Origin: a virus
Taxonomy: Duplodnaviria; Heunggongvirae; Uroviricota; Caudoviricetes
Reading direction: 5' to 3' (one strand)
DNA length: 25,050 nucleotides
Virus record (IMG/VR): IMGVR_UViG_2778261084_000006
Span: 1-25,050 of that record
The stretch's first letter is position 1, and the number at the start of each line of letters is the position of its first letter. Shown in pieces: positions 2,582-23,635 of the stretch. The notes beneath the pieces are model-generated. The model saw nothing but the letters and a program-made list of their open reading frames with translations, had not been told where the DNA came from and made no database searches. The position numbers and the translations under genes were made by a program.

Positions 2582-3078
2582 CAGTGATGACGCTCAATCT
2601 CGTTGAAAAACAGCCAGCAGCTATGCGCCGGATAATTGGTAAGCATCTTGCCGTTCCTCGCTGGCAGGATACATGTGATTATTATAATCAGATGATGGAG
2701 CGCGAACGGCTAACAGTTTGCTTTCATGCGCAGTTAAAACAGCGTCACGCAACGATGCGTTTTGAAGAAATGAACGACGTCGAACGTGAACGACTGGTAT
2801 GTGCAATTGATGAATTGCGTGGGGCATTCTCAAAACGTCGTCAGGTCGGTGCAAGTGAGTATGCATATATTAGTTTTTTAACAGTCAGTCAGCGTCGTAC
2901 TTTATTTATGCATGCCGGATTGACTGAAAAAGAATTTAACCAGCCATACTGGCGAATTAATGAAGAGTCATGTTACTGGCGTGATGCTTTATTCCGTGCA
3001 TTACGTGAATTATTCAGCCTGTTTGAGTATGCACCGACAATTCTGACATCGGTAAAACCAGAGCAATATCTGCATTAA
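2578..3078 (+). CDS. B: replication protein B (P2 gpB-like, helicase-loader type)
   Basis: MTVMTLNLVEKQPAAMRRIIGKHLAVPRWQDTCDYYNQ...; start chosen at second ATG (2578) for RBS spacing after ggaggg; track ORF starts at 2572. Confidence 0.85.
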   Translation: MTVMTLNLVEKQPAAMRRIIGKHLAVPRWQDTCDYYNQMMERERLTVCFHAQLKQRHATMRFEEMNDVERERLVCAIDELRGAFSKRRQVGASEYAYISFLTVSQRRTLFMHAGLTEKEFNQPYWRINEESCYWRDALFRALRELFSLFEYAPTILTSVKPEQYLH

Positions 3079-3141
3079 GTAATTAACCAGAGTTTTTAAC
3101 GCACTTAATTGTGCGGGGCTTCTTTTTGCCTGGAGAAAGTC

Positions 3142-3366
3142 ATGCATACAGTTTCTGAAAATCAGTGCGGTAAATACGCATTACTGCTGCAACAGGCCAG
3201 AACCGAAGCACAGGCCGATGCAGCGACGCGCTTTTCTTCTCATCTTGACGCCATGATTCGCCACATCACAAAGGCGGAGTTATCCCGCGTGGAGATAGTC
3301 GAGCTGCTCAGTCAGGAGTCGGAAAAATTTCACAACATCGGATTGTCTCGCGGGGAGGTGCTTTGA
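3142..3366 (+). CDS. small early-operon hypothetical protein (P2 orf80-like position)
   Basis: ATG at 3142 with ggagaaag RBS; track ORF starts at TTG 3109; stop overlaps next start. Confidence 0.5.
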
Positions 3367-3668
3367 TGTCCTGTTCTCGTTCAGTTGTTTTACTGAACAA
3401 TGCCTTAAAAATCGCCGTTATGAAAAATGGCGATTTGTCTCTTATTCAACTTGGTCTTGATAAAGAAAAACGCGAAATAACTGAATCTGTTATCGCGATT
3501 TATCAGAGTGAATTAAACCTCCTGTCTGATGTGGTCAATTTACTTGTTAAACGCGCTGTATTTCACAAGCAAATTTCCTCCGTGGATGAACTGACGAAAT
3601 TAACGACAGAAATCGCCAGCTATTGCGCTGATGAATTTAAAAAAATGAACGACAAAAGGAACTGGTAA
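3366..3668 (+). CDS. small early-operon hypothetical protein (P2 orf81-like position)
   Basis: ATG 3366 overlapping upstream stop (TGATG), ggggagg RBS; ~100 aa. Confidence 0.5.
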   Translation: MSCSRSVVLLNNALKIAVMKNGDLSLIQLGLDKEKREITESVIAIYQSELNLLSDVVNLLVKRAVFHKQISSVDELTKLTTEIASYCADEFKKMNDKRNW

Positions 3669-3892
3669 TGCCGGACAACGTAGATTTTATTCAGGAACAA
3701 CAGGCTGAATTACTGGAGCGCCAGATTAACGCGGCAAGGGTAAAACATTGCGGTGCTTCTGCGCTGGTTTGCGAAGAGTGTGACGCGCCAATACCTGCTG
3801 CCCGTCGTGCGGCTTATCCGTCAGCCACGCGTTGTGTTTCCTGTCAGGCAGTCTTTGAAGCAAAAAACAAACATTACCGGAGAACGGCATGA
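3668..3892 (+). CDS. TraR/DksA-family C4 zinc-finger protein (P2 orf82-like)
   Basis: 74 aa; CGASALVCEECDAPIP...ATRCVSCQ gives CxxC-N17-CxxC; TAATG overlap with upstream gene. Confidence 0.75.
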   Translation: MPDNVDFIQEQQAELLERQINAARVKHCGASALVCEECDAPIPAARRAAYPSATRCVSCQAVFEAKNKHYRRTA

Positions 3893-6592: not shown

Positions 6593-8431
6593 ATGAGCGA
6601 GTTTGATGTTTTTTCTATTTCAGTTGATGATTTTAAAAAAAGTGAATACGCCAGTATATTATCATCGCCAAGAAGTTATTCTCATTTTGATATGGAGTCT
6701 TATTTTGTTCAGTTGTTGTCATCTTACAAGCTAAAAAACGATGTAAGTTCTTGGCGGCTTTGCTATTTATTACGTGCGTTGTTTAATTTTAAATTTTCTA
6801 GGTCTGGTGATATTATCGGTTTTGAGCCAAAAATCATTCTCTATCCTGAGAGGGGCTATAGGCCTTCAGATTATAAGGAGAGTTTTTCAACAATATTAAC
6901 TTGTATTAAAGAAAACTCCGATAATCCTTATATTATATCTAGGGTGTGTGATGTTTTATGGATAAATAACCGTAAGGATATAGACTCTGCCAATAAAGCA
7001 ATAGAGTCATATTCTCTAATGGTTAATGATGCTTGCGATACTTTAATAGAAAAACAAGAGTCAGGTGATATCCATATTTTTGATGTTGTTGACTGCTTGG
7101 ATAGAGGTATCGCAATATCGCGCATGCTTATTGGCAGGAAAAAACAACTACAAGGGGGGATAGTTGATTCGACATTAAGGTTATATCATGTATTAATAGA
7201 CTCTGGTATATTCACCGGTGTATTAAGAGTTTCTGAAATTCTTTATAAGAATAATTTATTGTGTCCCTTGCAATTGGCTGAGAATGCAGAAAAGATAGCT
7301 GATGAGCATTGTGGAGCGTCTTATTTTGATGCAGTGAAAAAATTGTTTTATTTTGCGTCTGAATTATATGTTAAAAACGATATGGAAGAGCAAGGAAGAC
7401 GGTGCAGAATTAAAGCGTCAGAAATAACATTGGCTCAATTTGAACAGTCTTCATCTTCAATATTGAAGGCTCATTGGTTAAGAGTTGCTCTTGGCGAATT
7501 TAGAGCAATTGGTGGAATGAATGAAGAAATTAAAAAGATTAGAGAGGAATTGAATTCTATTCGAGATCAAATTAATGATGAAATGCACTTCTTTGCAATA
7601 CCAATGGATCTTAGTGATGTTATCGCTCAGAAAGAGCATGTTTATAATCAATTGGATTTCTCAAGGGTAATTAAAACTTTAATTGCTAGATTTAAGATTG
7701 TAAGTGCCAGTGAAATTATGGAAAGAGCTCGTTCCGATGCTAAAAAACATTTTTTTCTTAATATGAGTGAAACGGTTGTTTATGATGATAGAGGGCGCGT
7801 TGTAGCAAGTCGTTCACCTTTGGATCCTGCGGGGGATATAAGTTTAAATGATGCTTGTGCAAATTATTTAAGAACTAGTAACATTGAGCATCAGGTCTAT
7901 GTTTGTGGTGAGTTTGAAGTCGTTAGGCAAAGTGTGTTGGCTAGGTATTCATTAAATGAAAATACATTTGACCCAATCTCACAACAAAGTGCATTTGTTC
8001 CACCTGGGTATGCAGAAATATTTTCTTTGGGGTTTTATAAGCTTTGGCAGGGAGATTATGTGTCTGCCTGTTATTTGTTATTGCCGCAATTGGAGAATTC
8101 AATTAGATGGATTTTAGAATTAAGAAGAAAAGAAACAACGAAAATAGATGTGTCGCTTTTTGAGGAGGCTACTAGCCTATCTCAAATGCTTGCAAATTAT
8201 AGGAGTGAAATGGAAGGTGTTTTTGATAGTGATCATGTATTGACTATGGATTTATTGTTCAATATGAAAGGTGGTGCTGCAATTAGACACACGATGGCTC
8301 ATGGCAGGTATACTGTAAATCATTGTTATCAACCAACTTCAGTTTTTGCCTGTGTCTTTATCTTTTATTTAACTTGTTTGCCTTTATTTAGTGTATGGGA
8401 AGATAAAGTTGAACCTTATCTGGCTGATTAA
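6593..8431 (+). CDS. cargo protein of unknown function, 612 aa, in the A-to-cos variable locus; possible HEPN-like motif and C-terminal hydrophobic anchor
   Basis: long ORF in visibly AT-rich DNA with aaggtgagg RBS; no Walker A motif (so not an Old-type ATPase); GGAAIRHTMAHG (Rx4H) near C-terminus followed by hydrophobic SVFACVFIFYLTCLPLFSVW. Confidence 0.7.
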   Translation: MSEFDVFSISVDDFKKSEYASILSSPRSYSHFDMESYFVQLLSSYKLKNDVSSWRLCYLLRALFNFKFSRSGDIIGFEPKIILYPERGYRPSDYKESFSTILTCIKENSDNPYIISRVCDVLWINNRKDIDSANKAIESYSLMVNDACDTLIEKQESGDIHIFDVVDCLDRGIAISRMLIGRKKQLQGGIVDSTLRLYHVLIDSGIFTGVLRVSEILYKNNLLCPLQLAENAEKIADEHCGASYFDAVKKLFYFASELYVKNDMEEQGRRCRIKASEITLAQFEQSSSSILKAHWLRVALGEFRAIGGMNEEIKKIREELNSIRDQINDEMHFFAIPMDLSDVIAQKEHVYNQLDFSRVIKTLIARFKIVSASEIMERARSDAKKHFFLNMSETVVYDDRGRVVASRSPLDPAGDISLNDACANYLRTSNIEHQVYVCGEFEVVRQSVLARYSLNENTFDPISQQSAFVPPGYAEIFSLGFYKLWQGDYVSACYLLLPQLENSIRWILELRRKETTKIDVSLFEEATSLSQMLANYRSEMEGVFDSDHVLTMDLLFNMKGGAAIRHTMAHGRYTVNHCYQPTSVFACVFIFYLTCLPLFSVWEDKVEPYLAD

Positions 8432-8744: not shown

Positions 8745-9014
8745 GTGACTAAATTTGACAAAAAAAAAGCAATTTCTATTTTAACAGAAAAAAAAGCCTT
8801 GCTCCCATGTCATCGGTGTGGAAATTCAAAGTTCATCATTTTGGATGGCATATCATCACTTCCATTAATGGAAAATATGGAAATGATTGGTAGTATTGTT
8901 GTTGGCGGAATGAATGCTCCTGTATTACATGTGGCATGTGAGAATTGTGGTGCAGTTACTTCACATTTGCTTGGGGCACTTGGTTTAATGCCGGAGATTA
9001 AATCAAATGACTAA
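8745..9014 (+). CDS. small zinc-ribbon protein (CxxC...CxxC), hypothetical cargo
   Basis: 89 aa from GTG start with ggagtg RBS; CHRCGN ... CENCGA cysteine pairs; last 8 nt overlap the next ORF. Confidence 0.6.
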   Translation: MTKFDKKKAISILTEKKALLPCHRCGNSKFIILDGISSLPLMENMEMIGSIVVGGMNAPVLHVACENCGAVTSHLLGALGLMPEIKSND

Positions 9015-9477
9015 GGATGTTTTTTTCTCTGATGAAGGTAGTGGTAAAAAAAGTGCTGTCTTGCATGGGGCGCAGGTTACAATAAACCCTGATTCGCAAT
9101 TTACAAAAAAGATAATTAGGCAGACTGAGGTTGATGTTATTGTGATAAGTGATGATAAACTTCATATAATTTTGACGAATTGCTTATCTAAAATTGCATC
9201 ATTAAACCGCTGGTCAACACCTTTGGGTATTTTAATTACCTTGGCGGTAACTATGTTAACCACAAATTTTAAGAATTTTATTCTTCAGGATTCTGTGTGG
9301 GAGGCTGTTTTCTGGATGCTTATTTTTTTTAATATTATCTGGTTGGTGAAAAACATTCCATATAGACACTTATTTTTAACTGTTTGTCATTCTATAGGGG
9401 TTCGTAAAGATAAAAAAAGAATTAGTGATGTATACCACATTATAGATATAATTAAACAAGGTGATACACGCTTTTGA
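9007..9477 (+). CDS. small membrane protein with two predicted TM helices, hypothetical cargo
   Basis: 156 aa; hydrophobic segments WSTPLGILITLAVTMLTTNF and WEAVFWMLIFFNIIWLV; start overlaps upstream stop (translational coupling); AT-rich. Confidence 0.6.
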   Translation: MTKDVFFSDEGSGKKSAVLHGAQVTINPDSQFTKKIIRQTEVDVIVISDDKLHIILTNCLSKIASLNRWSTPLGILITLAVTMLTTNFKNFILQDSVWEAVFWMLIFFNIIWLVKNIPYRHLFLTVCHSIGVRKDKKRISDVYHIIDIIKQGDTRF

Positions 9478-9510
9478 TTTAATATCAATATTTGATTGAG
9501 TATATAATAA

Positions 9511-9533
9511 AGCCGCCTGAGTTTATGGCGGCT
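9511..9533. terminator. bidirectional hairpin between convergent cargo gene and Q
   Basis: stem agccgcc / ggcggct with 9-nt loop, flanked by A/T-rich runs on both sides. Confidence 0.45.
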
Positions 9534-9553
9534 AATATAGGGTGTGTGCTAAG

Positions 9554-10573
9554 TCATAATGTGTATTTGTTGAATCTAATTATTTCTTCGCCAACCCATT
9601 CATTAAGGGCAATAAAGCGAGATTGAATAGGAGTAAGCTCATTGCGGACAAAGACCTTTGCCACTTTCTCAATATCACCCAGTGACCCGACGTTCTCCGG
9701 CTTGCCGCCCATCAACTGAAAGGGGATGCGGTGCGCGTCCAGCAGGTCAGCGGCGCTGGCTTTTTTGATATTAAAAAAATCGTCCTTCGTCGCCACTTCA
9801 CTGAGGGGGATAATTTTAATGCCGTCGGCTTTCCCCTGTGGGGCATAGAGAAACAGGTTTTTAAAGTTGTTGCGGCCTTTCGACTTGACCATGTTTTCGC
9901 GAAGCATTTCGATATCGTTGCGATCCTGCACGGCATCAGTGACGTACATGATGTATCCGGCATGAGCGCCGTTTTCGTAATACTTGCGGCGGAACAGCGT
10001 GGCCGACTCATTCAGCCAGGCAGAGTTAAGGGCGCTGAGATATTCCGGCAGGCCGTACAGCTCCTGATTAATATCGGGCTCCAGCAGGTGAAACACGGAG
10101 CCGGGCGCGAAGGCTGTCGGCTCGTTGAAGGACGGCACCCACCAGTAAACATCCTCTTCCACGCCACGACGGGTATATTTTGCCGGTGAGGTTTCCAGTC
10201 TGATGACCTTACCGGTGGTGCTGTAACGCTTTTCCAGAAACGCATTACCGAACACCAGAAAATCCAGCACAAAGCGGCTGAAATCCTGCTGGGAAAGCCA
10301 CGGATGCGGAATAAACGTTGAAGCCAGAATATTGCGTTTAACGTAAATCGGCGAGCTGTGATGCACGGCAGCACGCAGGCTTTTTGCCAGACCGGTAAAG
10401 CTGACCGGTGGCTCATACCATCTGCCGTTACTGATGCACTCGACGTAATCCAGAATGTCACGGCGGTCGAGAACCGGCACCGGCTCGCCAAAGGTGAATG
10501 CCTCCATTTTCGGGGCGCTGGCGGTCATTTTTTTTGCCGCTGGTCGCGGTGTTTTCCCTTTTTTCTTGCTCAT
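9554..10573 (-). CDS. Q: portal protein gpQ (P2-like)
   Basis: 339 aa, MSKKKGKTPRPAAKK...; Q start overlaps P stop (ATGA) as in P2. Confidence 0.9.
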   Translation of the reverse strand: MSKKKGKTPRPAAKKMTASAPKMEAFTFGEPVPVLDRRDILDYVECISNGRWYEPPVSFTGLAKSLRAAVHHSSPIYVKRNILASTFIPHPWLSQQDFSRFVLDFLVFGNAFLEKRYSTTGKVIRLETSPAKYTRRGVEEDVYWWVPSFNEPTAFAPGSVFHLLEPDINQELYGLPEYLSALNSAWLNESATLFRRKYYENGAHAGYIMYVTDAVQDRNDIEMLRENMVKSKGRNNFKNLFLYAPQGKADGIKIIPLSEVATKDDFFNIKKASAADLLDAHRIPFQLMGGKPENVGSLGDIEKVAKVFVRNELTPIQSRFIALNEWVGEEIIRFNKYTL

Positions 10574-11250
10574 CAGTAAAACTCCAGAATGGTGGATGTC
10601 AGCGGAGTGCTGATACCCGCGGTGAGTGGCTCATTTAACAGGGCGTGCATGGTCGCCCAGGCGAGGTCGGCGTGGCTGGCTTCCTCGCTGCGGCTGGCCT
10701 CATAGGTGGCGCTGCGTCCGCTGCTGGTCATGGTCTTGCGGATAGCCATAAACGAGCTGGTGATGTCGGTGGCGCTGACGTCATATTCCAGACAGCCACG
10801 GCGGATGACGTCTTTTGCCTTGAGCACCATTGCGGTTTTCATTTCCGGCGTGTAGCGGATATCGCGCGCGGCGGGATAGAACGAGCGCACGAGCTGGAAC
10901 ACGCCGACACCGAGGCCGGTGGCATCAATACCGATGTATTCAACGTTATATTTTTCGGTGAGTTTGCGGATGGATTCCGCCTGGGTGGCAAAGTCCATGC
11001 CTTTCCACTGGTGACGCTCAAGTATTCTGAATTTGCCACCGGCCACCACCGGCGGTGCCAGTACCACGCATCCGGCGCTGTCGCCACGGTGTGACGGGTC
11101 GTAACCAATCCATACCGGACGTGAGCCGAACGGATTGGCGGCAAACGGCGCATAGTCTTCCCATTCTTCCAGCGTGTCGACCATGCAGCGTTGCAGCTCC
11201 TCGACCCGAATTTTGCTACCACCATGACTAATGCGCTTGCGGGTAAGCAA
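10573..11250 (-). pseudogene. P: terminase large subunit gpP, 5'-truncated (C-terminal ~225-237 codons only)
   Basis: C-terminal nuclease-domain-like sequence (WIGYDPSHRGDSAGCVVLAPP...YIGIDATGLGVGVF); frame closed by an in-frame stop at 11287-11289; full P2 gpP is ~590 aa; upstream DNA is tail-fibre coding on the other strand. Confidence 0.8.
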
Positions 11251-12318
11251 CCGAAAGATGCCACTTTGACGGCGCTGGCGGGGCTTGCTACTGCGGCAGA
11301 CAGGTTTCCGTATTTTACGGGGAATGATGTTGCCAGCCTGGCGACCCTGACAAAAGTCGGGCGGGATATTCTGGCTAAATCGACCGTTGCCGCCGTTATC
11401 GAATATCTCGGTTTACAGGAAACGGTAAACCGAGCCGGGAACGCCGTGCAAAAAAATGGCGATACCTTGTCCGGTGGACTTACTTTTGAAAACGACTCAA
11501 TCCTTGCCTGGATTCGAAATACTGACTGGGCGAAGATTGGATTTAAAAATGATGCCGATGGTGACACTGATTCATACATGTGGTTTGAAACGGGGGATAA
11601 CGGCAATGAATATTTCAAATGGAGAAGTCGCCAGAGCACCACAACAAAAGACCTGATGAATCTTAAATGGGATGCTCTGTATGTTCTTGTTAAAGCCCTT
11701 TTCAGCAGTGAAGTAAAAATATCTACAGTCAATGCGCTGAGGATATTTAATTCATCTTTTGGTGCTATTTTTCGCCGTTCTGAAGAAAACCTGTATATCA
11801 TTCCTACACGAGAAAATGAGGGTGAAAATGGAGATATTGGGCCATTAAGGCCATTCGGCATCAACTTAAGAACAGGAGTTGTGTCTGTTGGTAATGGTGC
11901 CAGGATTGATGGCGGGCTGGCACTTGGCACGAATAACGCGTTGGGTGGGAACTCTATTGTTCTTGGTGATAACGACACCGGATTTAAACAAAATGGCGAT
12001 GGTAATCTGGATGTTTATGCTAATAACGTCCATGTTATGCGCTTTGTTTCCGGAAGCATTCAAAGTAATAAGACCATAAATATTACGGGGCGTGTTAATC
12101 CCTCGGATTACGGTAACTTTGATTCCCGCTATGTGAGAGATATCAGACTTGGCACACGTGTTGTCCAGACCATGCAGAAAGGGGTGATGTATGAGAAAGC
12201 AGGGCACGTAATTACCGGGCTTGGTATTGTCGGTGAAGTCGATGGTGATGACCCCGCAGTATTCAGGCCAATACAAAAATACATCAATGGCACATGGTAT
12301 AACGTCGCACAGGTGTAA
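11191..12318 (+). pseudogene. H: tail fibre gpH-like, 5'-truncated (C-terminal ~365 aa)
   Basis: conserved tail-fibre block NALAGKQPKDATLTALAGLATAADRFPYFTGNDVASLATL begins at ~11230; ORF opens at TTG 11191 inside P-derived DNA; followed by tail fibre assembly gene. Confidence 0.75.
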
Positions 12319-12321
12319 TTT

Positions 12322-12849
12322 ATGCAGCATTTAAAAAATATTACTGCGGGTAATCCAAAAACTGTTGCCCAATATCAACTGACAAAAAATTTTGATGTTA
12401 TCTGGTTATGGTCCGAAGAGGGAAAAAACTGGTATGAGGAAGTAAGTAATTTTCAGGAAGACACGATAAAGATTGTTTACGACGAGAATAATATAATTGT
12501 CGGCATCACCAGAGATGCTTCAACGCTTAACCCTGAAGGTTTCAGCGTTGTCGAGGTTCCTGATATTACCTCCAACCGACGTGCTGATGACTCAGGTAAA
12601 TGGATGTTTAAGGATGGTGCCGTGATTAAGCGGATTTATACGGCAGATGAACAGGAGCAACAGGCAGAATCACAAAAGGCAGCTTTACTTTCCGAAGCTG
12701 AATCCGTGATTTTGCCGCTGGAACGCGCTGTCAGGCTGAATATGGCGACGGATGAGGAACGCAGCCGACTGGAAGCATGGGAACGCTACAGCGTTCTGGT
12801 CAGTCGTGTGGATCCTGCAAATCCCGAATGGCCGGAAATGCCGCAATAA
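12322..12849 (+). CDS. G: tail fibre assembly chaperone gpG
   Basis: 175 aa, [41 protein letters not shown] ... [12 protein letters not shown]; matches my recollection of P2 gpG. Confidence 0.9.
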
Positions 12850-13117
12850 GTTGTATGATCTCTGGTGTGAGCTTACATATCTATAGCACAGAGTAAAGCC
12901 TAATCTGACAGTCCGCTATGTGCCAAAAGCGGAAGTTGCTTCGTGCTGGGATAGGATGATTATGGAAATGTGTTCATGAGCATTTCATGACGCATGAATT
13001 GAATTATAATTCAATTAGATATACTATATTTATAATTAAAAATAGCATTGTAATATTTAAAAGATATATGTTATTGATACGCATATTTATTCTTTTAAAT
13101 TCACAAGTGAGGTTTGT

Positions 13118-14140
13118 ATGCGTAGAGTAGTAATTGACACAAATATTTTATATGCTCTGACTGGAGTTTCTGTGAATGAAAAGGTGGTAACTTCGAGTCT
13201 TAATGATTTTAAGCTATCCATAACCACCCCATCAATTATAGAGATGGTTGTTAAATTTCAATATGATTTAGATACAATAAAGAAATGCCTCGAACCTATC
13301 ATAAATGAAAGCATTGAGCTCATTAGCATAGGTCACGCCCCAATTCCGAATGAATATCTTTACATGTTACACTTCGCGAAGGAAATAGAAGAAGTTACAG
13401 ATCTCATTGATGAGATTAAAACGTTAAAAATCTCCAGGGAAGCTGAATTCTACAGGTTTATACTTATATTAGTTGTTTCTGGGTTATTTGAGGTTATTAG
13501 AGAGGATGGCTACAAATTTTGTGATGAGGCACGAAATCAAAAACAATTAATGATGGTGCGTTCTTTATTTGAGTCTAACATGGATCTAATATTAGATTAC
13601 TTTAAAGATGAAATACGTAATGGATATATGAATGGAAATGAACAACAAGCTGCCCTAGATGCTTTCCAAAGTAAAATAATCATGTTATTAAATATTTTTC
13701 ATATAAATTATCATATGATTAAAACCGATACATTTCCTTATAATGAATCCTCGGTGAACCTTGAGAACTTAATCACTAGTTTAGATAGTGATTGCTTTAA
13801 CATAAAACTTAAAAAATACATCGATAATCCTTTATTTTTTGCATCTAAAGCAAAATACAATTCGATAATAAATAATTATATGGCAGAAATGAGAAATGGA
13901 ATGCTAGATTTGAGTGGACTCACTGAGAAGTCTATGGATTTCCTATTGAATAAGATTGACAGTGCTTATAAAAATGGCAGGAAGTTGCGAAAAAATGACA
14001 TATTTGATTTCCTGATTGTTATTTCCTTAAACATGCCAGACACTTTGATTGTTACACTTGATAAAGGTTTCCTGAAAGATCTTGAACATCTTGATTATAA
14101 TAGCTACCAACTTTGTCAAAAGTTAGGCTATATAAATTGA
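13118..14140 (+). CDS. PIN-like domain protein (putative nuclease), 340 aa, cargo in G-to-FI variable locus
   Basis: N-terminus MRRVVIDTNILYAL (PIN first strand with Asp), downstream PSIIEMVVKF (second acidic), C-terminal LIVTLDKGF (PIN TxD..F-like); AT-rich; agtgagg RBS. Confidence 0.6.
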   Translation: MRRVVIDTNILYALTGVSVNEKVVTSSLNDFKLSITTPSIIEMVVKFQYDLDTIKKCLEPIINESIELISIGHAPIPNEYLYMLHFAKEIEEVTDLIDEIKTLKISREAEFYRFILILVVSGLFEVIREDGYKFCDEARNQKQLMMVRSLFESNMDLILDYFKDEIRNGYMNGNEQQAALDAFQSKIIMLLNIFHINYHMIKTDTFPYNESSVNLENLITSLDSDCFNIKLKKYIDNPLFFASKAKYNSIINNYMAEMRNGMLDLSGLTEKSMDFLLNKIDSAYKNGRKLRKNDIFDFLIVISLNMPDTLIVTLDKGFLKDLEHLDYNSYQLCQKLGYIN

Positions 14141-14348
14141 AACTTTCAGTGAATGTAATGAAACCATTACACCAACTTTTAGATGACTCTGGATAAGACA
14201 ACAGTAAGAATAATTGCAGAGGTCCTCTTTTCGCTCATAGCAGCCCTCGCGGCGCTTCAGACGGTCTGCTTCGTGCTGGAGCGGACCTAAGTGCCTAGCT
14301 ATGAGTGGCACGACAGAATACAATGTAAAATAAAATACCCTTGCAGGG

Positions 14349-15407
14349 ATGAAAATAATGATTGAACCGTTTAGTTGGGAAAATTGGAAGCAAGTATACC
14401 TACATAAAAAAAACAAGAAGCGAGTTTCTCTTGAACGATACGGATTGAGAAGTCTTCACTCTGTCGCCAGCTTGGACTTAATCGTATCAAAAGTTCATGA
14501 ATTATATTTAAAAAAACAGCAAGAAGTGGCTGTTAATGCTAAATCTGTTTGGATAGATGGAACTCCTCAGGCTAAATTCAAGAGTGTCGATGGCTCTGTC
14601 TTAAACTGCGAATTGGCGGATCTTCTGTTTATTATTCACGAGATGGATAATAAAAACAAAACAATAAATTTTCGAGCTACCTTATTACAAGGTAAGTGTT
14701 CTGAGAAACATAATTTACTCCCAAATGGACCTTCGACAGATAAAGAAAGAAAACTGCTCGAATCTATCGATCGCAATGAGTATTTGTACTTATACCCAGG
14801 CACGAGGGCATACGGAGAAAAAATAGGGAAATATAAATTAGGCGGGGAGAACATCGGATTAGCGGACTGTGCGAAATATTTAATTATGCCTAAATATGAA
14901 AGATGGAAATATAAAACACCTGATAATATATCTCCTTACGTAATTGGCTGGCCAAACAAAATATCATCCAATTATTTAACCAATGTTGTAAATTACATGG
15001 ATGTAATTCTTGAAAAAATGATTTCATCAAAGACCATGGGAAAGGAAATAAATTTAACGATGCAAAACCATATAGACAGGCAATGTGAGTGGTCAAAAAT
15101 GATTTATGATTTGTTAAATAGCTACTTACCGATAACAATGAAGGGCTATGACTCCCAACGAAGAGTATATAAGTCAAGTTTATTTGACGATAATATGTCT
15201 GCTACATTAGCATTGATTAATAATGGTCACTGTGATTTCATAAGTAAACATGCTTTTAAAGACTTGCCTAAAGGTAAGGGTAGGTTTTTATATCAACATA
15301 CATTAAATATTCTTGGGGATTACTCTAGCCCCGTTATTTCAACAATATATATCCAAATCAAACAAAAGGAAGGGGAAATATATCGTCAATCTCTTGGGGT
15401 TGATTGA
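14349..15407 (+). CDS. hypothetical protein, 352 aa, cargo
   Basis: long AT-rich ORF on same strand as the PIN-like gene; no motif recognised; alternative start at 14358. Confidence 0.6.
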   Translation: MKIMIEPFSWENWKQVYLHKKNKKRVSLERYGLRSLHSVASLDLIVSKVHELYLKKQQEVAVNAKSVWIDGTPQAKFKSVDGSVLNCELADLLFIIHEMDNKNKTINFRATLLQGKCSEKHNLLPNGPSTDKERKLLESIDRNEYLYLYPGTRAYGEKIGKYKLGGENIGLADCAKYLIMPKYERWKYKTPDNISPYVIGWPNKISSNYLTNVVNYMDVILEKMISSKTMGKEINLTMQNHIDRQCEWSKMIYDLLNSYLPITMKGYDSQRRVYKSSLFDDNMSATLALINNGHCDFISKHAFKDLPKGKGRFLYQHTLNILGDYSSPVISTIYIQIKQKEGEIYRQSLGVD

Positions 15408-15655
15408 GTTAGGAGTAACTGTTTGCTAAAGACTATATTTCCACTCTTGACGAGAATAATAAGATGCTCGGTTTTATTAGCAGAGTTATTTTAAAATTCA
15501 ATTCAGAAAGATATGATTGTGTTTAGGCTTAGGTCCACTCCTCGCTCATAGCAGACCTGATAATGTTCTGTCGATCAGTGGGTTCAAGAAAAGGACTATT
15601 AATCATCAACTATTAGTTGACCATTATCGTCATCGAAAATATTAGGTAAAAAATT

Positions 15656-15694
15656 GAGCCACAGACAAAAATATATTGAATTAACCTGTGGCTC
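15656..15694 (-). terminator. hairpin downstream of the GNAT gene (stem gagccacag / ctgtggctc, 21-nt loop)
   Basis: perfect 9-bp stem; on the minus strand it is followed by a T-run (complement of aaaaaatt); long loop lowers confidence. Confidence 0.4.
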
Positions 15695-15701
15695 TTTAAC
15701 A

Positions 15702-16352
15702 TTAGAGGTACATGCTCATCGGTATGCCTTGCCCTGCCTCAAGAGCAGCTTTACCTATCCATGTATCATGAACAACAAATCCATATTTTTCAAAATGCTT
15801 CTTGAGTGGTATGTCCGCAGCGGTAAGATATATTTCCTCAATGCCTTCTTGCTTACAATACTGTATGGCGTTTTCCAGAAGTTCGGCGAAAAGCCCAAGG
15901 CCATGATATTCTTGGAAGTCATATTTTTGAGGGATTACTGGTTCGTAGGGATTTACAAGCATTACATCAACGATCATTAAAATATTAGGGTAGGAATGTG
16001 CTAATATGAGCTCTACCGTCTCTTTATCATCCAGTTCTGGATCCTGAACCTCTCCATGTACATATAAAATATCTTTAATAACATTTTCATTTATATGTTT
16101 TGACACTTTTTTATATAGTAGCGGGTTATTAGTTTGGCATTCCCTTCCAAATATAAACTTATCTTGGTTAGGATTTGCATTGCAGAAACGGTCCCACGCT
16201 GCAATACCTATCTGAAAAAGATCATTTGGTTTATTTCTTACAAGGAATTCTATTCGCTCAATTCCATATTCTATGAATTTTACTGGATTAGTAAATTTTT
16301 TTGTTATTGATTCAGAAGGAAGTATAGCGTTTAATCTTCTCTGGTTTTCCAT
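15702..16352 (-). CDS. GNAT-family N-acetyltransferase, 216 aa, cargo
   Basis: acetyl-CoA-binding motif A region EYHGLGLFAELLENAIQYCKQEGIEEIYLTAAD and C-terminal KKHFEKYGF typical of GNAT fold; ATG with aggtg RBS; convergent with the 352-aa ORF. Confidence 0.7.
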   Translation of the reverse strand: MENQRRLNAILPSESITKKFTNPVKFIEYGIERIEFLVRNKPNDLFQIGIAAWDRFCNANPNQDKFIFGRECQTNNPLLYKKVSKHINENVIKDILYVHGEVQDPELDDKETVELILAHSYPNILMIVDVMLVNPYEPVIPQKYDFQEYHGLGLFAELLENAIQYCKQEGIEEIYLTAADIPLKKHFEKYGFVVHDTWIGKAALEAGQGIPMSMYL

Positions 16353-16693
16353 AATTCACACCTTGTAATTACCTCATGAAAATAATCTATATGTTGCACC
16401 AAGAAAGATAACATTGCCATAATTTATTAACTGGCCTATGACGCACATCAAGAATGGTCGTATCGGAATAAGGAGTAGCGGAAGATTATACCAGCAGATT
16501 TGCTACAAATATTAATAGTAGTTCTGGTGATGCTATGGGCTAGCATCACGAAAATGATGAATCATGTGTTATGCGGACACGATACTTGATCATAACGACA
16601 GCTTCTCGCTCAAAGCAGACTGTCAGATTTGATAGCGTTTTGGCTATGTAAATTGTCAGTCGGGAAATAAGTGAGTACAAATCATGACAGGCG

Positions 16694-16720
16694 GGCGGAT
16701 TGTCCGCCTTTTCTTTATCT
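16694..16720 (+). terminator. intrinsic-terminator-like hairpin plus T-tract upstream of FI
   Basis: ggcgga-ttg-tccgcc followed by ttttctttatctgttgtttc. Confidence 0.4.
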
Positions 16721-16813
16721 GTTGTTTCATCCACTGACCAGCCAGGTCAAATAGCGTCTCATGCTCTGCACAACAGAAAATACCACTCACCCATTAACCA
16801 CGGAGTTAGACGG

Positions 16814-18004
16814 ATGAGTGACTATCATCACGGCGTGCAGGTGCTGGAGATTAACGACGGCACCCGCGTCATTTCCACCGTATCCACTGCCATTGTCGGC
16901 ATGGTCTGCACGGCCAGCGATGCAGATGCGGAAACCTTCCCCCTCAATAAACCGGTGCTGATTACCAATGTGCAGAGCGCAATTGCAAAGGCCGGTAAAA
17001 AAGGCACGCTGGCGGCGTCGTTACAGGCCATCGCTGACCAGTCAAAACCGGTCACCGTTGTTGTGCGCGTGGAAGACGGCACCGGCGACGACGAAGAAAC
17101 GAAACTTGCGCAGACCGTTTCCAATATCATCGGCACCACCGACGAAAACGGTCAGTACACCGGACTGAAAGCCCTGCTGGCGGCGGAGTCGGTAACCGGT
17201 GTTAAACCGCGTATTCTCGGCGTGCCGGGACTGGATACCAAAGAGGTGGCTGTTGCACTGGCATCAGTCTGTCAGAAGCTGCGCGCTTTCGGGTATATCA
17301 GCGCATGGGGCTGTAAAACCATTTCTGAGGTGAAAGCCTACCGCCAGAATTTCAGCCAGCGTGAGCTGATGGTCATCTGGCCGGATTTCCTCGCATGGGA
17401 TACGGTCACCAGTACCACCGCCACCGCGTATGCCACTGCCCGTGCGCTGGGGCTGCGCGCTAAAATCGACCAGGAGCAGGGCTGGCATAAAACGCTGTCC
17501 AACGTTGGGGTGAACGGTGTTACCGGCATCAGTGCATCTGTATTCTGGGATTTGCAGGAGTCCGGCACCGATGCTGACCTGCTTAACGAGTCAGGCGTCA
17601 CTACGCTGATTCGCCGCGACGGTTTCCGCTTCTGGGGTAACCGTACCTGCTCTGATGACCCGCTGTTCCTCTTTGAAAACTACACCCGCACCGCGCAGGT
17701 GCTGGCCGACACGATGGCTGAGGCGCACATGTGGGCGGTGGACAAGCCCATCACCGCAACGCTGATTCGCGACATCGTTGACGGTATCAATGCCAAATTC
17801 CGTGAGCTGAAAACAAACGGCTATATCGTGGATGCGACCTGCTGGTTCAGCGAAGAATCCAACGATGCGGAAACCCTCAAGGCCGGAAAACTGTATATCG
17901 ACTACGACTATACACCGGTGCCTCCTCTCGAAAACCTGACCCTGCGCCAGCGTATTACCGATAAATACCTGGCAAATCTGGTCACCTCGGTTAACAGCAA
18001 TTAA
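16814..18004 (+). CDS. FI: tail sheath protein gpFI
   Basis: MSDYHHGVQVLEINDGTRVISTVSTAIVGMVCTASDADAETFPLNKPVLITNVQ ...; 396 aa from ATG 16814 (track ORF starts upstream at 16700). Confidence 0.95.
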   Translation: MSDYHHGVQVLEINDGTRVISTVSTAIVGMVCTASDADAETFPLNKPVLITNVQSAIAKAGKKGTLAASLQAIADQSKPVTVVVRVEDGTGDDEETKLAQTVSNIIGTTDENGQYTGLKALLAAESVTGVKPRILGVPGLDTKEVAVALASVCQKLRAFGYISAWGCKTISEVKAYRQNFSQRELMVIWPDFLAWDTVTSTTATAYATARALGLRAKIDQEQGWHKTLSNVGVNGVTGISASVFWDLQESGTDADLLNESGVTTLIRRDGFRFWGNRTCSDDPLFLFENYTRTAQVLADTMAEAHMWAVDKPITATLIRDIVDGINAKFRELKTNGYIVDATCWFSEESNDAETLKAGKLYIDYDYTPVPPLENLTLRQRITDKYLANLVTSVNSN

Positions 18005-23517: not shown

Positions 23518-23543
23518 AAAAAATAAGCCCGTGTAAGGGAGAT
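23518..23543. repeat. attR core (direct repeat of 476-502; forms the 3' end/terminator of cyaR)
   Basis: aaaaataagcccgtgtaagggagatt identical to the left copy apart from one fewer A. Confidence 0.8.
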
Positions 23544-23603
23544 TACACAGGCTAAGGAGGTGGTTCCTGGTACAGCTAGCATTTTATGGGTTATGTTTTT
23601 CAG
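23518..23603 (-). ncRNA. cyaR: CyaR (RyeE) Hfq-dependent sRNA
   Basis: reverse complement reads GCTGAAAAACATAACCCATAAAATGCTAGCTGTACCAGGAACCACCTCCTTAGCCTGTGTAATCTCCCTTACACGGGCTTATTTTT, matching the CyaR sequence as I recall it; lies between ogr and yegQ as in K-12. Confidence 0.85.
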
Positions 23604-23635
23604 CGAAACGGATGATAACCTTAATAAATGCAGCT

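What the first reader, a model, noticed from the sequence alone, without database searches (positions are those of the whole stretch)
14231..16620. Short repeated intergenic motifs bracketing each cargo gene in the G-to-FI island
A 13-bp core tcgctcatagcag occurs at 14241-14253 and 15542-15554 (22/26 identity over ggtcc.ct..tcgctcatagcag.cc) and with one mismatch at 16606-16618. A second 13-bp motif, tgcttcgtgctgg, occurs at 12937-12949 and 14267-14279. Each lies in an intergenic spacer flanking a cargo gene, which suggests cassette boundaries used for recombinational exchange, shared regulatory sites, or remnants of a small structured RNA.
Basis: seen in the sequence. Interest (0 to 1): 0.45.

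Follow-up and report, generated by a model that had tools for sequence, protein, structure and literature searches.

The report
Palindromic boundary sites flanking cargo cassettes
The short repeats are fragments of two related 24-34-base palindromic sites that mark, in this defective P2-like prophage and in many other phages and genomic islands, the exact points where accessory-gene cassettes are joined and swapped; the outer pair is annotated in a 2003-04 GenBank record of this island, and I found no description of the internal copies or the wider site grammar.

Summary
The two motifs are pieces of one element family: 24-nt units GTCYGCT-N10-AGCGGAC of two types, A (centre TGTGCCAR) and B (centre TGAGCGAR, opposite orientation). 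The island reads A | gene1 | B-18nt-A | gene2 | B | gene3 | B.

The outer A and B belong to the P2 backbone. In 14 other P2-like G-FI islands with unrelated cargo, homology to the window always breaks inside these units. The island is 99.9% identical to GenBank AJ512681 (P2-EC48), which annotates only the outer inverted repeats.

The internal copies are true module ends. Gene2+gene3 with their A and B units occur in a non-phage Raoultella locus, with homology starting and ending in the units. Gene1 homologues sit between A and B in three further contexts.

The units follow a strict grammar in about 170 loci. Inverted pairs are A+B, direct pairs are same-type, and back-to-back pairs are spaced 9-18 nt, most often 18. 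They show no link to gene direction, no promoter or terminator, no Rfam match and no linked recombinase.

Best reading: recombination sites for cassette exchange. The enzyme is unknown. Site-specific recombination is favoured over homology-driven exchange.

The parts
12822..12910 (+). Outer part of the left arm: conserved P2 backbone, from the end of gene G to AATCTGACA.
   Evidence: GenBank AJ512681 annotates 'left inverted repeat' at 3-115, which is window 12822-12934. It is conserved in 14 other P2-like loci. It pairs imperfectly with 16621-16675.
12911..12934 (+). Unit A, left end of the island: GTCCGCTA TGTGCCAA AAGCGGAA.
   Evidence: HMM hit at 12906-12939, E 2e-9. Backbone homology in all 14 comparison loci ends at 12922-12941. 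Sequence variability starts at unit position 15.
12935..12949 (+). Partial second A-type unit, GTTGCTTCGTGCTGG.
   Evidence: Exact 13-mer shared with unit A'. A tandem A-A arrangement is also seen upstream of the gene-1 homologue in Serratia, L175 3354-3381 and 3399-3427.
13118..14140 (+). Cargo gene 1 (340 aa, no family match).
   Evidence: ORF. No Pfam, PADLOC or NCBIfam hit. Homologues lie between an A and a B unit in L172, L175 and L177.
14222..14245 (-). Unit B', right end of cassette 1.
   Evidence: HMM hit at 14218-14245, E 2e-6. It has the general-pool signature CATAGCAG, not the P2 backbone signature CAAAGCAG.
14246..14263 (.). 18-nt spacer of the back-to-back B-A composite.
   Evidence: Composite HMM matches 14218-14290 over its full length, E 1e-12. 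An 18-nt gap is the commonest in back-to-back unit pairs (25 of 54). The spacer is 16/18 identical to that of a Klebsiella michiganensis composite, L129 792-857.
14264..14286 (+). Unit A', left end of the gene2+gene3 module. It is 23 nt, one base short, and contains motif 2, second copy.
   Evidence: Regex hit. HMM E 0.06. Homology to the Raoultella locus L165 starts at 14266.
14349..15407 (+). Cargo gene 2 (352 aa; sources name its homologues 'lysogenic conversion protein').
   Evidence: An 83% identical homologue lies in Raoultella L165 between A and B units.
15533..15556 (-). Unit B'' between gene 2 and gene 3. It contains motif 1, second copy.
   Evidence: HMM hit at 15529-15558, E 1.5e-8. 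It is conserved at the same place in L165, 3626-3652.
15702..16352 (-). Cargo gene 3 (216 aa, weak GNAT acetyltransferase signal), flanked by two B units in direct orientation.
   Evidence: It travels with gene 2 in L165.
16597..16620 (-). Unit B, right end of the island. It contains motif 1, third copy with one mismatch. It is a hybrid: the inner arm is cargo-linked and the outer arm is P2 backbone.
   Evidence: HMM hit at 16601-16625, E 7e-7. Backbone homology resumes at 16591-16608 in 14 loci. Homology to L165 ends at 16620. The inner-arm variant GACAGCT is shared with L165, and the outer part carries the P2 signature.
16621..16675 (+). Outer part of the right arm (TGTCAGATTTGATAGCG...), conserved P2 backbone.
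   Evidence: The GenBank 'right inverted repeat' coordinates (3166-3256) fall inside ORF3 and look like a misprint for about 3766-3856.

Best explanation
The motifs are parts of a family of palindromic boundary units. Each unit has two 8-nt arms (GTCYGCTN / RAGCGGAC, often extended to AAT...ATT or TGAAY...RTTCA) around an 8-nt asymmetric centre.

There are two types. A has centre TGTGCCAR. B has centre TGAGCGAR and always lies in the opposite orientation.

The P2 backbone carries one A after gene G and one B before gene FI, and cargo always sits between them. In this window three modules have been joined: A | gene1 | B-18nt-A | gene2 | B | gene3 | B.

Shown: the units are the places where cargo modules are joined to backbones and to each other, and the junction falls within the unit centre.

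Inferred mechanism:
- Exchange is by conservative site-specific recombination at the centre, carried out by a recombinase encoded elsewhere (host or helper).
- A and B act as non-cross-reacting sites.
- Same-type sites in direct orientation allow a circle carrying one site to integrate or excise. This would explain gene 3 lying between two B units, and the arrays of direct A units.
- A cassette held between an inverted A and B can be swapped between replicons without being inverted or lost.

My confidence that the units are cassette-exchange boundaries is about 0.85. The figure given in the confidence field is for the whole statement, including the site-specific mechanism.
For: Backbone/cargo breakpoints:
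- In 14 P2-like G-FI islands with unrelated cargo, homology ends at window 12922-12941 and resumes at 16591-16608.
- Per-position identity is 92-100% through the outer arm and centre and drops from unit position 15, in both A and B.

Internal units are module ends:
- Window 14266-16620 equals Raoultella L165 2363-4713 (88% over 2358 bp). The match starts in A' and ends at the outer end of B, and the flanks are unrelated.
- The right-end B is a hybrid: its inner arm is shared with L165 and its outer part carries the P2 signature.
- Gene-1 homologues are bracketed by A and B in an Enterobacter prophage, a Serratia locus and an E. coli lambdoid prophage.

Other contexts:
- The same units bound cargo next to the portal gene, after gene D and after gene U of P2-like contigs.
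- They also do so in lambdoid and other phages, in enterobacterial chromosomes and plasmids and in the CFT073 island.
- Independent locus pairs break homology within 0-11 nt of unit edges.

Grammar:
- Inverted pairs around cargo: 54 A+B against 2 A+A.
- Back-to-back pairs: 33 of 33 are A+B.
- Direct pairs: 41 A+A and 12 B+B, no A+B.
- Gaps of back-to-back pairs: 42 of 54 are 9-18 nt, and 25 are exactly 18.
- Only 1 hybrid centre occurs among the roughly 150 exact-pattern matches of the genome scan.

Site shape and alternatives:
- The 13-8-13 palindrome with an asymmetric centre is seen in the flank logos.
- Direct arrays of A units 0.6-2.8 kb apart occur in Nitrosomonadaceae.
- Gene orientation is independent of the units.
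- There is no promoter or terminator signal and no unusual folding.
Against: - No recombinase or transposase gene recurs near the units in about 135 loci. The enzyme is entirely hypothetical.
- The units are 24-34 bp of near identity. From my own knowledge this is close to the minimum length for RecA-dependent exchange, so general recombination could give the same breakpoints.
- Because the centre and arms are conserved everywhere, the crossover can only be placed between unit positions 8 and 15.
- The ascertainment was by exact pattern, which biases unit sequences, though not flanks, spacing or grammar.
- The origin of the B-spacer-A composite and of its preferred 18-nt spacing is unexplained.
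- Multi-copy occurrence in Alphaproteobacteria looks more like REP-type repeats.
- The primary paper behind the GenBank record (from memory, Nilsson et al. 2004) could not be read.
Confidence: 0.45

Rival explanations
1. Portable homology. The units are kept for some other function, such as a protein-binding palindrome. They serve only as short islands of identity at which RecA or phage recombinases occasionally exchange neighbouring genes, as proposed for PeSLs in T4-type phages.
For: - No recombinase is linked to the units.
- The units are 24-34 bp of near identity in all contexts.
- Breakpoints at unit edges are what BLAST would report for any crossover inside a conserved block.
- PeSL precedent: recombination between conserved intergenic motifs shuffles ORFs and makes mini-circles (PMC2839356).
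Against: - It does not explain the two discrete centre types, with only 1 hybrid among the roughly 150 exact-pattern matches.
- It does not explain the strict A/B orientation grammar or the preferred 18-nt spacing.
- It does not explain conservation of the same 24-mer across phyla.
- No other function is visible: no promoter or terminator, no gene-direction bias, no stable fold.
Confidence: 0.3
2. REP/BIME- or REPIN-like elements. The units are hairpin repeats spread by a single-strand HUH (RAYT or IS200/IS605-type) transposase. Cargo genes lie between them because the repeats accumulate in intergenic DNA of variable regions.
For: - There are two hairpin variants in alternating orientation with spacers of preferred length and in sequence families, as in BIMEs.
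- The element is multi-copy in Xanthobacteraceae MAGs, with a third loop type forming doublets downstream of genes.
Against: - There are only 1-5 copies per E. coli genome.
- No RAYT-like ORF was found in the sampled loci, using a query recalled from memory.
- Module homology ends at the units, which passive accumulation does not predict.
- Hairpin pairing is not preserved by compensatory change.
- From my own knowledge, the GTAG-type 5' motif of REPs is absent.
Confidence: 0.12
3. Expression or RNA element: a shared operator, insulator, RNase III-type processing hairpin, or remnant of a structured RNA flanking each cargo gene.
For: - The units are palindromes of the 7-10-7 type.
- The B-18-A composite could form a long hairpin of about 24 bp with two fixed mismatches.
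- The units lie in intergenic DNA.
Against: - Units face 5' and 3' gene ends equally.
- There is no promoter- or terminator-like site at the units.
- Folding z-scores range from -0.1 to -1.6.
- Deviations mostly break pairing.
- There is no Rfam match.
- This reading does not explain the breakpoints.
Confidence: 0.08
4. Local relic only. The internal copies are duplications of the P2 backbone inverted repeat made within this island, with no wider meaning.
For: The internal copies resemble the outer arms.
Against: - The internal B units carry the general-pool signature CATAGCAG, not the P2 backbone signature.
- The same internal units flank the same genes in Raoultella outside any P2 context.
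- The composite spacer matches one in a Klebsiella chromosome.
Confidence: 0.02

Closest known systems
Inverted repeats of the P2 'Z/fun' region: GenBank AJ512681, P2-EC48. From memory, the associated paper is Nilsson, Karlsson and Haggard-Ljungquist 2004, Mol Biol Evol 21:1.
   Same: It is the same DNA: 99.9% identity over 4024 bp. The record annotates a left and a right inverted repeat around three 'putative lysogenic conversion' ORFs. The paper's title attributes insertion to site-specific recombination.
   Different: The record annotates only the outer pair, with no internal copies, no A/B distinction and no composite. The paper itself could not be read, so I cannot say how much of the wider distribution it already reports.
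dif modules of Acinetobacter plasmids (pdif XerC/XerD sites): PMC13141974, PMC6449649.
   Same: Discrete accessory-gene modules are bounded by short sites of about 28 bp in inverse orientation. The modules are shuffled between replicons, and no recombinase is linked because the host Xer enzymes act in trans.
   Different: From my own knowledge of dif, the sequence is unrelated. Here neighbouring modules are separated by two sites (B-spacer-A) rather than sharing one. There are two centre types. The hosts are Enterobacterales phages and islands.
Integron gene cassettes and attC sites.
   Same: Arrays of promoter-independent cassettes are separated by imperfect palindromes. Direct arrays of A units in Nitrosomonadaceae look integron-like. 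AAY...RTT triplets lie at the cargo-proximal ends.
   Different: The units are 24-34 bp, not 57-141 bp. The R''/R' consensus is not met. Enteric cassettes are bracketed by inverted sites of different type. No intI is nearby.
PeSLs (promoter-early stem-loops) of T4-type phages: PMC2839356, PMC4122927.
   Same: Conserved intergenic motifs flank non-essential ORFs in hyperplastic regions of phage genomes, and recombination between them shuffles modules.
   Different: PeSLs are functional promoter-plus-terminator cassettes. These units have neither and are not restricted to one phage group.
REP/BIME and REPIN elements.
   Same: Two hairpin variants alternate in orientation, with spacer motifs of preferred length.
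   Different: Copy number in E. coli is low. No RAYT was found. Here the units coincide with module breakpoints.
lox-type sites and recombinase-mediated cassette exchange with heterospecific sites.
   Same: The extended unit has a 13-8-13 architecture with an asymmetric 8-nt centre. Two centre variants never mix. Cassettes lie between inverted sites of different type.
   Different: No Cre-like enzyme has been identified, and there is no sequence similarity to loxP (from my own knowledge). This is a functional analogy only.

Membership tests
P2 Z/fun-region inverted repeats (AJ512681) | Located between tail-fibre assembly gene G and sheath gene FI, flanking foreign ORFs. | tested here: met
   G is at 12322-12849 (Caudo_TAP) and FI at 16700-18004 (sheath domains). 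Identity to AJ512681 is 99.9%. The annotated left repeat maps to 12822-12934.
P2 Z/fun-region inverted repeats (AJ512681) | Arms conserved among P2-like phages with different inserts. | tested here: met
   In 14 of 14 loci homology ends or resumes in the arms.
Integron attC | R'' RYYYAAC and R' GTTRRRY boxes at the ends of a 57-141 nt imperfect palindrome. | tested here: not met
   The flank logos show AAY...RTT but no RRRY or RYYY context. The unit is 24-34 nt.
Integron attC | One site per cassette, all in direct orientation, next to intI and attI. | tested here: not met
   Enteric cassettes are bracketed by inverted A+B units (54 of 56). No tyrosine recombinase recurs near the units. Direct arrays exist only in some non-enteric genomes.
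REP/BIME/REPIN | High copy number of extragenic palindromes per genome. | tested here: not met
   E. coli has 1-5 places per genome, median 1. The element does appear multi-copy in Xanthobacteraceae MAGs.
REP/BIME/REPIN | A cognate RAYT (Y1 transposase) gene flanked by the repeats. | tested here: inconclusive
   There was no hit in the sampled 2-14-kb loci with a RAYT sequence recalled from memory. Whole genomes could not be scanned.
REP/BIME/REPIN | Two palindrome variants in alternating orientation with spacer motifs. | tested here: met
   33 of 33 back-to-back pairs are A+B. The gaps are 9-18 nt, with spacer families.
dif modules (XerC/XerD pdif sites) | Sites of 11-6-11 bp resembling dif. 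| not tested
   No dif model was available. By eye the units share nothing with the enterobacterial dif consensus (my own knowledge).
dif modules (XerC/XerD pdif sites) | Modules bounded by inversely oriented sites and shared between replicons. | tested here: met
   This is an analogy of architecture only.
PeSL regulatory cassettes | A strong sigma-70 promoter plus a terminator stem-loop in the motif. | tested here: not met
   No promoter- or terminator-like site lies at any unit. Folding is not above shuffles.
Transposon or MITE terminal inverted repeats | Inverted terminal repeats with target-site duplication and a cognate transposase. | tested here: inconclusive
   Inverted A/B ends are present. 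However, direct same-type arrays and fixed-gap composites do not fit this model. No transposase recurs. Target-site duplications were not examined systematically.
lox-type tyrosine-recombinase site | Two inverted arms of about 13 bp around an asymmetric 6-8 bp centre. | tested here: met
   TGAAYGTCYGCTT-TGTGCCAA-AAGCGGACRTTCA in Nitrosomonadaceae and Bacteroidota loci. AAT...ATT extension in enteric loci.
lox-type tyrosine-recombinase site | A cognate recombinase that binds and recombines the site. | not testable with these tools
   No candidate gene is linked. Genetics or biochemistry is needed.
Known RNA families (Rfam 15) | A match to a covariance model. | tested here: not met
   No match at the units at E up to 1 in the window. 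No match at gathering score in five unit-rich loci.

The most novel reading that the evidence does not exclude
A and B units are two non-cross-reacting target sites of a recombinase encoded in trans. Together they would form a natural cassette-exchange system. It would load and swap accessory and defence genes at P2 hotspots, in lambdoid and other phages and in genomic islands such as the CFT073 aspV island across Enterobacterales. Related single-type arrays would act like integrons without attC or intI in Nitrosomonadaceae and other phyla.
Probability: 0.3. Interest if true: 0.85.

Novelty: new variant of a known kind. Interest (0 to 1): 0.6.

Why it matters
P2-like prophages carry hotspots packed with anti-phage systems. 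Rousset et al. 2022 state that the mechanism behind the high rate of gene exchange at these loci is unknown, and they speculate about cos ends (PMC9122126).

A defined site of about 30 bp is present at every G-FI island examined. It also occurs at other P2 hotspots, in unrelated phages and in chromosomal islands, and homology breaks inside it. This gives a concrete and testable handle on that question:
- mutate the centre;
- look for cassette circles;
- search for the protein that binds the site.

The A/B grammar could also be used to delimit cargo modules automatically in prophages and genomic islands, and to find new defence or conversion genes.

If the 2004 paper already reports most of this, the value is smaller. 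What would remain is the internal composite, the two site types, the orientation and spacing rules, and the cross-context proof for this island.

Tried and rejected
- **Rfam.** I searched the window at E up to 1 and five unit-rich loci at gathering score. Nothing matched at the units.
- **Cargo protein families.** PADLOC, Pfam and NCBIfam gave only a weak GNAT signal for gene 3.
- **tblastn of the cargo proteins against 50,697 phage records.** Only AJ512681 matched.
- **Literature.** Searches by unit sequence and by topic found nothing relevant. The 2004 paper and Odegrip 2006 are not held.
- **Linked enzyme.** I clustered 943 ORFs from about 135 loci. The recurrent families are cargo-type: LysR, SDR, quinone oxidoreductase, aldo-keto reductase, MFS and ABC_sub_bind. 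BLAST with the P2 integrase and a recalled RAYT sequence gave nothing.
- **Structure.**
  - Folding z-scores are not significant.
  - Compensatory changes are few, and most deviations break pairing.
  - An early impression of strand-specific G-T wobble did not hold in less biased sets.
- **Expression signal.** There is no gene-direction bias and no promoter or terminator at the units.
- **tRNA-adjacent att site.** ARAGORN found no tRNA next to the Nitrosomonadaceae units.
- **Empty sites.** No A and B unit face each other within 200 nt in 78 convergent pairs.
- **A decayed A unit between B'' and gene 3.** It was not detected.
- **Ideas noted and dropped as probable coincidences.** These were similarity of the A centre to the R64 shufflon core GTGCCAA, similarity of the B centre to lambda boxA, a sigma-54-like reading, and the RuvC consensus at the inner edge.
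Full report
**Setting**

The window is a P2-like prophage.
- It has an integrase-side early region, replication gene A (Phage_GPA), a portal gene, a tail-fibre C-terminal fragment, tail-fibre assembly gene G (12322-12849), and then sheath, tube, tape-measure, U and D genes.
- CyaR sRNA lies just beyond the end, at 23521-23606.
- The finding concerns the 3.8-kb AT-rich island between G and FI. It holds three ORFs: 13118-14140 (+), 14349-15407 (+) and 15702-16352 (-).

**Checking the observation**

Both 13-mers exist as described. The only error is that the first copy of TCGCTCATAGCAG is at 14231-14243, not 14241-14253. At up to two mismatches about 0.5-0.7 matches are expected in the whole window, and no shuffle out of 100 reached the observed counts. 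The repeat finder extends motif 1 to a 28-nt family at 14220, 15531 and 16595. It also shows inverted relations:
- 12902-12937 against 16594-16629 (36 nt, 78%);
- 14278-14291 against 15528-15541 (14 nt, 93%).

**What the motifs are**

Reading the copies in register shows one element, a 24-nt unit GTCYGCT-N10-AGCGGAC. I read it on the strand that puts the cargo on its 3' side. It comes in two types.
- A has centre TGTGCCAR and lies to the left of cargo.
- B has centre TGAGCGAR and lies to the right of cargo, on the other strand.

Motif 2 is one arm plus the centre of an A unit.

The island reads:
- A 12911-12934, followed by a partial A-type copy at 12935-12949;
- gene 1;
- B' 14222-14245, an 18-nt spacer, then A' 14264-14286;
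- gene 2;
- B'' 15533-15556;
- gene 3;
- B 16597-16620.

HMMs built from units of other genomes, with the window excluded, hit the window significantly only at these places. The two-unit composite model matches 14218-14290 end to end with E 1e-12.

**Prior description**

The island is 99.9% identical to GenBank AJ512681, 'Bacteriophage P2-EC48 proviral Z-region, ORF1-3'.
- The record annotates a left inverted repeat (window 12822-12934), a right inverted repeat and three 'putative lysogenic conversion' proteins.
- The right-repeat coordinates fall inside ORF3 and look like a misprint.
- No internal repeats are annotated.
- From memory, the associated paper is Nilsson et al. [quoted passage not shown] It is not in the library, so I cannot tell how much further it goes.

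The outer pair, and the idea that site-specific recombination inserted the foreign DNA, are therefore not new.

**The outer units are backbone and cargo starts inside them**

I fetched 14 other G-FI islands from phages and E. coli genomes. All have different cargo, including SMEK, NUDIX plus phosphatase, Shedu and a P-loop ATPase.
- Homology to the window always ends at 12922-12941 and resumes at 16591-16608.
- Position by position, the outer flank, outer arm and centre are 92-100% identical among independent cargos. Variability starts at unit position 15, the end of the centre, in both A and B.
- The P2 backbone B has a lineage-specific base. The internal B units have the general-pool CATAGCAG.

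**The internal units are real module ends**

Gene-2 homologues occur in several genera.
- In a Raoultella ornithinolytica contig with no P2 genes, the order is A | gene-2 homologue | B | gene-3 homologue | B-spacer-A | next cassette | B-A. An IS110-type transposase and an HD protein lie upstream, and an AAA_15 ATPase lies downstream.
- BLAST aligns window 14266-16620 with that locus at 88% over 2358 bp. The alignment starts inside A' and ends at the outer end of the right B, and the flanks are unrelated.
- The right B shares its unusual inner arm (GACAGCT) with Raoultella, but its outer part has the P2 signature. The junction is therefore within the unit.
- Gene-1 homologues (61-66% identical) sit between an A and a B unit in an Enterobacter prophage, a Serratia locus and an E. 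coli lambdoid prophage.
- The 18-nt spacer of the window's composite is 16/18 identical to one in a Klebsiella michiganensis chromosome.

**Wider distribution and grammar**

A pattern for the internal B variant found 14 IMG/VR contigs.
- Some are P2-like, with the units at other positions: next to the portal gene, after D and after U.
- Others are lambdoid or of other kinds, where the units bound an Abi-like gene, an acyltransferase, a GNAT or LysR-plus-oxidoreductase modules.

- Many are Enterobacterales chromosomes and plasmids with A and B units.
- Others are Xanthobacteraceae and other Alphaproteobacteria, where the element is multi-copy and a third loop type forms doublets.
- Nitrosomonadaceae and a few other phyla are also represented.

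In E. coli complete genomes composite-like hits occur in 2164 of 5426 genomes, at 1-5 places each, all intergenic. In the CFT073 aspV-side island a TonB-receptor/ABC-transporter operon lies between two composites.

The grammar across all loci is strict.
- Back-to-back unit pairs: 42 of 54 have gaps of 9-18 nt, 25 of them exactly 18, and they always combine one A and one B.
- Convergent pairs always enclose more than 200 nt, so there are no empty cassettes.
- Inverted pairs around cargo are A+B in 54 cases against 2 A+A.
- Direct pairs are always same-type, 41 A+A and 12 B+B.
- Independent locus pairs break homology within 0-11 nt of unit edges.

**What the units are not**

- They face 5' and 3' gene ends equally.
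- They carry no promoter- or terminator-like pattern.
- They do not fold better than shuffles, and deviations mostly break pairing rather than being compensated.
- They match no Rfam family.
- No transposase, RAYT or integrase recurs nearby.

**Mechanism**

It is shown that the units are the joints at which cargo modules meet backbones and each other, and that the joint lies in the unit centre.

The mechanism is inferred. With flanks, the unit is a 13-8-13 palindrome with an asymmetric centre, which is the shape of a tyrosine-recombinase site. Several features fit conservative recombination between same-type sites by an enzyme acting in trans, as host Xer does for Acinetobacter dif modules:
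- two centre types that do not mix;
- the orientation rules;
- gene 3 lying between two direct B units;
- direct A arrays in Nitrosomonadaceae.

The main rival is exchange by general recombination at short conserved blocks, as proposed for T4 PeSLs. That rival is simpler on enzymes, but it leaves the grammar and the cross-phylum conservation unexplained. A REP/BIME-like origin remains possible, especially for the alphaproteobacterial copies.

**Verdict**

The outer repeats of this very island were published about twenty years ago. I found no description of the following in the annotation or in the searchable literature:
- the internal composite;
- the A/B site types;
- the spacing and orientation rules;
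- the proof that each cargo block here is an independently travelling module.

Rousset et al. 2022 still list the exchange mechanism at P2 hotspots as unknown.

Noticed in passing
window 9554-12318: The prophage looks defective. The portal gene (9554-10573, minus strand) is followed within about 600 nt by a C-terminal tail-fibre fragment (11191-12318, Gp34_trimer). The terminase, capsid, lysis and baseplate genes expected between them in P2 are missing.
   Followed up: partly
window 23521-23606 (-): A full-length CyaR/RyeE sRNA (100.7 bits) lies just past the D/ogr end of the prophage. This fits integration next to cyaR.
   Followed up: no
window 6593-8431 (+): The other P2 hotspot, between replication gene A and the portal gene, carries a 612-aa PDC-S39 / DUF7380 protein, a candidate defence gene. 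No A/B units are detectable at that hotspot in this window. Related IMG/VR contigs do have units there (L023, L027).
   Followed up: partly
L001 (AJ512681) 3166-3256: The GenBank 'right inverted repeat' coordinates fall inside ORF3 (2882-3532). The real right arm is at about 3766-3856 of the record, so this is probably a misprint in the record.
   Followed up: partly
window 14349-16352; L165 2452-4446: Gene 2 and the GNAT-like gene 3 stay together, in convergent orientation with a B unit between them. This holds in the P2 island and in Raoultella at 88% DNA identity, so they may act as a two-gene system. The exact gene-3 protein is listed in 157 blocks of the collection, and all 8 places shown carry the same three-gene island.
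   Followed up: partly
L172 2562-6032: In an Enterobacter hormaechei prophage the gene-1 cassette sits between two inverted Peptidase_S74 tail-fibre genes, with an HTH_7 gene beside them in L172 and a resolvase-family gene beside the same cassette in the related contig L173. The outer flanks of its A and B units (AAnCTGACA and further) resemble the extended P2 arms. The long P2 inverted repeat may therefore be a relic of an inverted tail-fibre duplication rather than part of the cassette sites.
   Followed up: partly
L047, L072, L053, L080: In Nitrosomonadaceae, a betaproteobacterial MAG and a Bacteroidota MAG, A-type units occur alone as direct repeats 0.6-2.8 kb apart, each within a 34-bp perfect-armed palindrome. 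This is an integron-like array without attC features.
   Followed up: partly
L034-L149 (Xanthobacteraceae, Pseudolabrys and other alphaproteobacterial loci): The same stem with a third loop (TTACCCCCRAA) forms doublets about 21 nt upstream of an A-type unit. The doublets occur many times per MAG, often just downstream of ABC_sub_bind-type genes. The reverse strand reads as spurious 'MSAFGTKRT'-like ORF starts.
   Followed up: partly
L150 (E. coli CFT073 264698-282762): In a CFT073 genomic island, a TonB-dependent receptor plus ABC transporter operon (locus 9316-14633) lies between two B-18-A composites (8996-9066 and 14758-14827). Further single units and an integrase fragment lie upstream.
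   Followed up: partly
window 16689-16709 (+): A strong intrinsic-terminator-like hairpin (9 bp, then TTTCTTT) lies between the right arm and the FI start. It is the only such site near the island borders.
   Followed up: no
window 12700-16900, searched against the RefSeq complete E. coli genomes: None of the 5426 complete RefSeq E. coli genomes carries this three-gene island, although 2115 carry the flanks. The island is nevertheless common in draft assemblies and read-set assemblies.
   Followed up: partly
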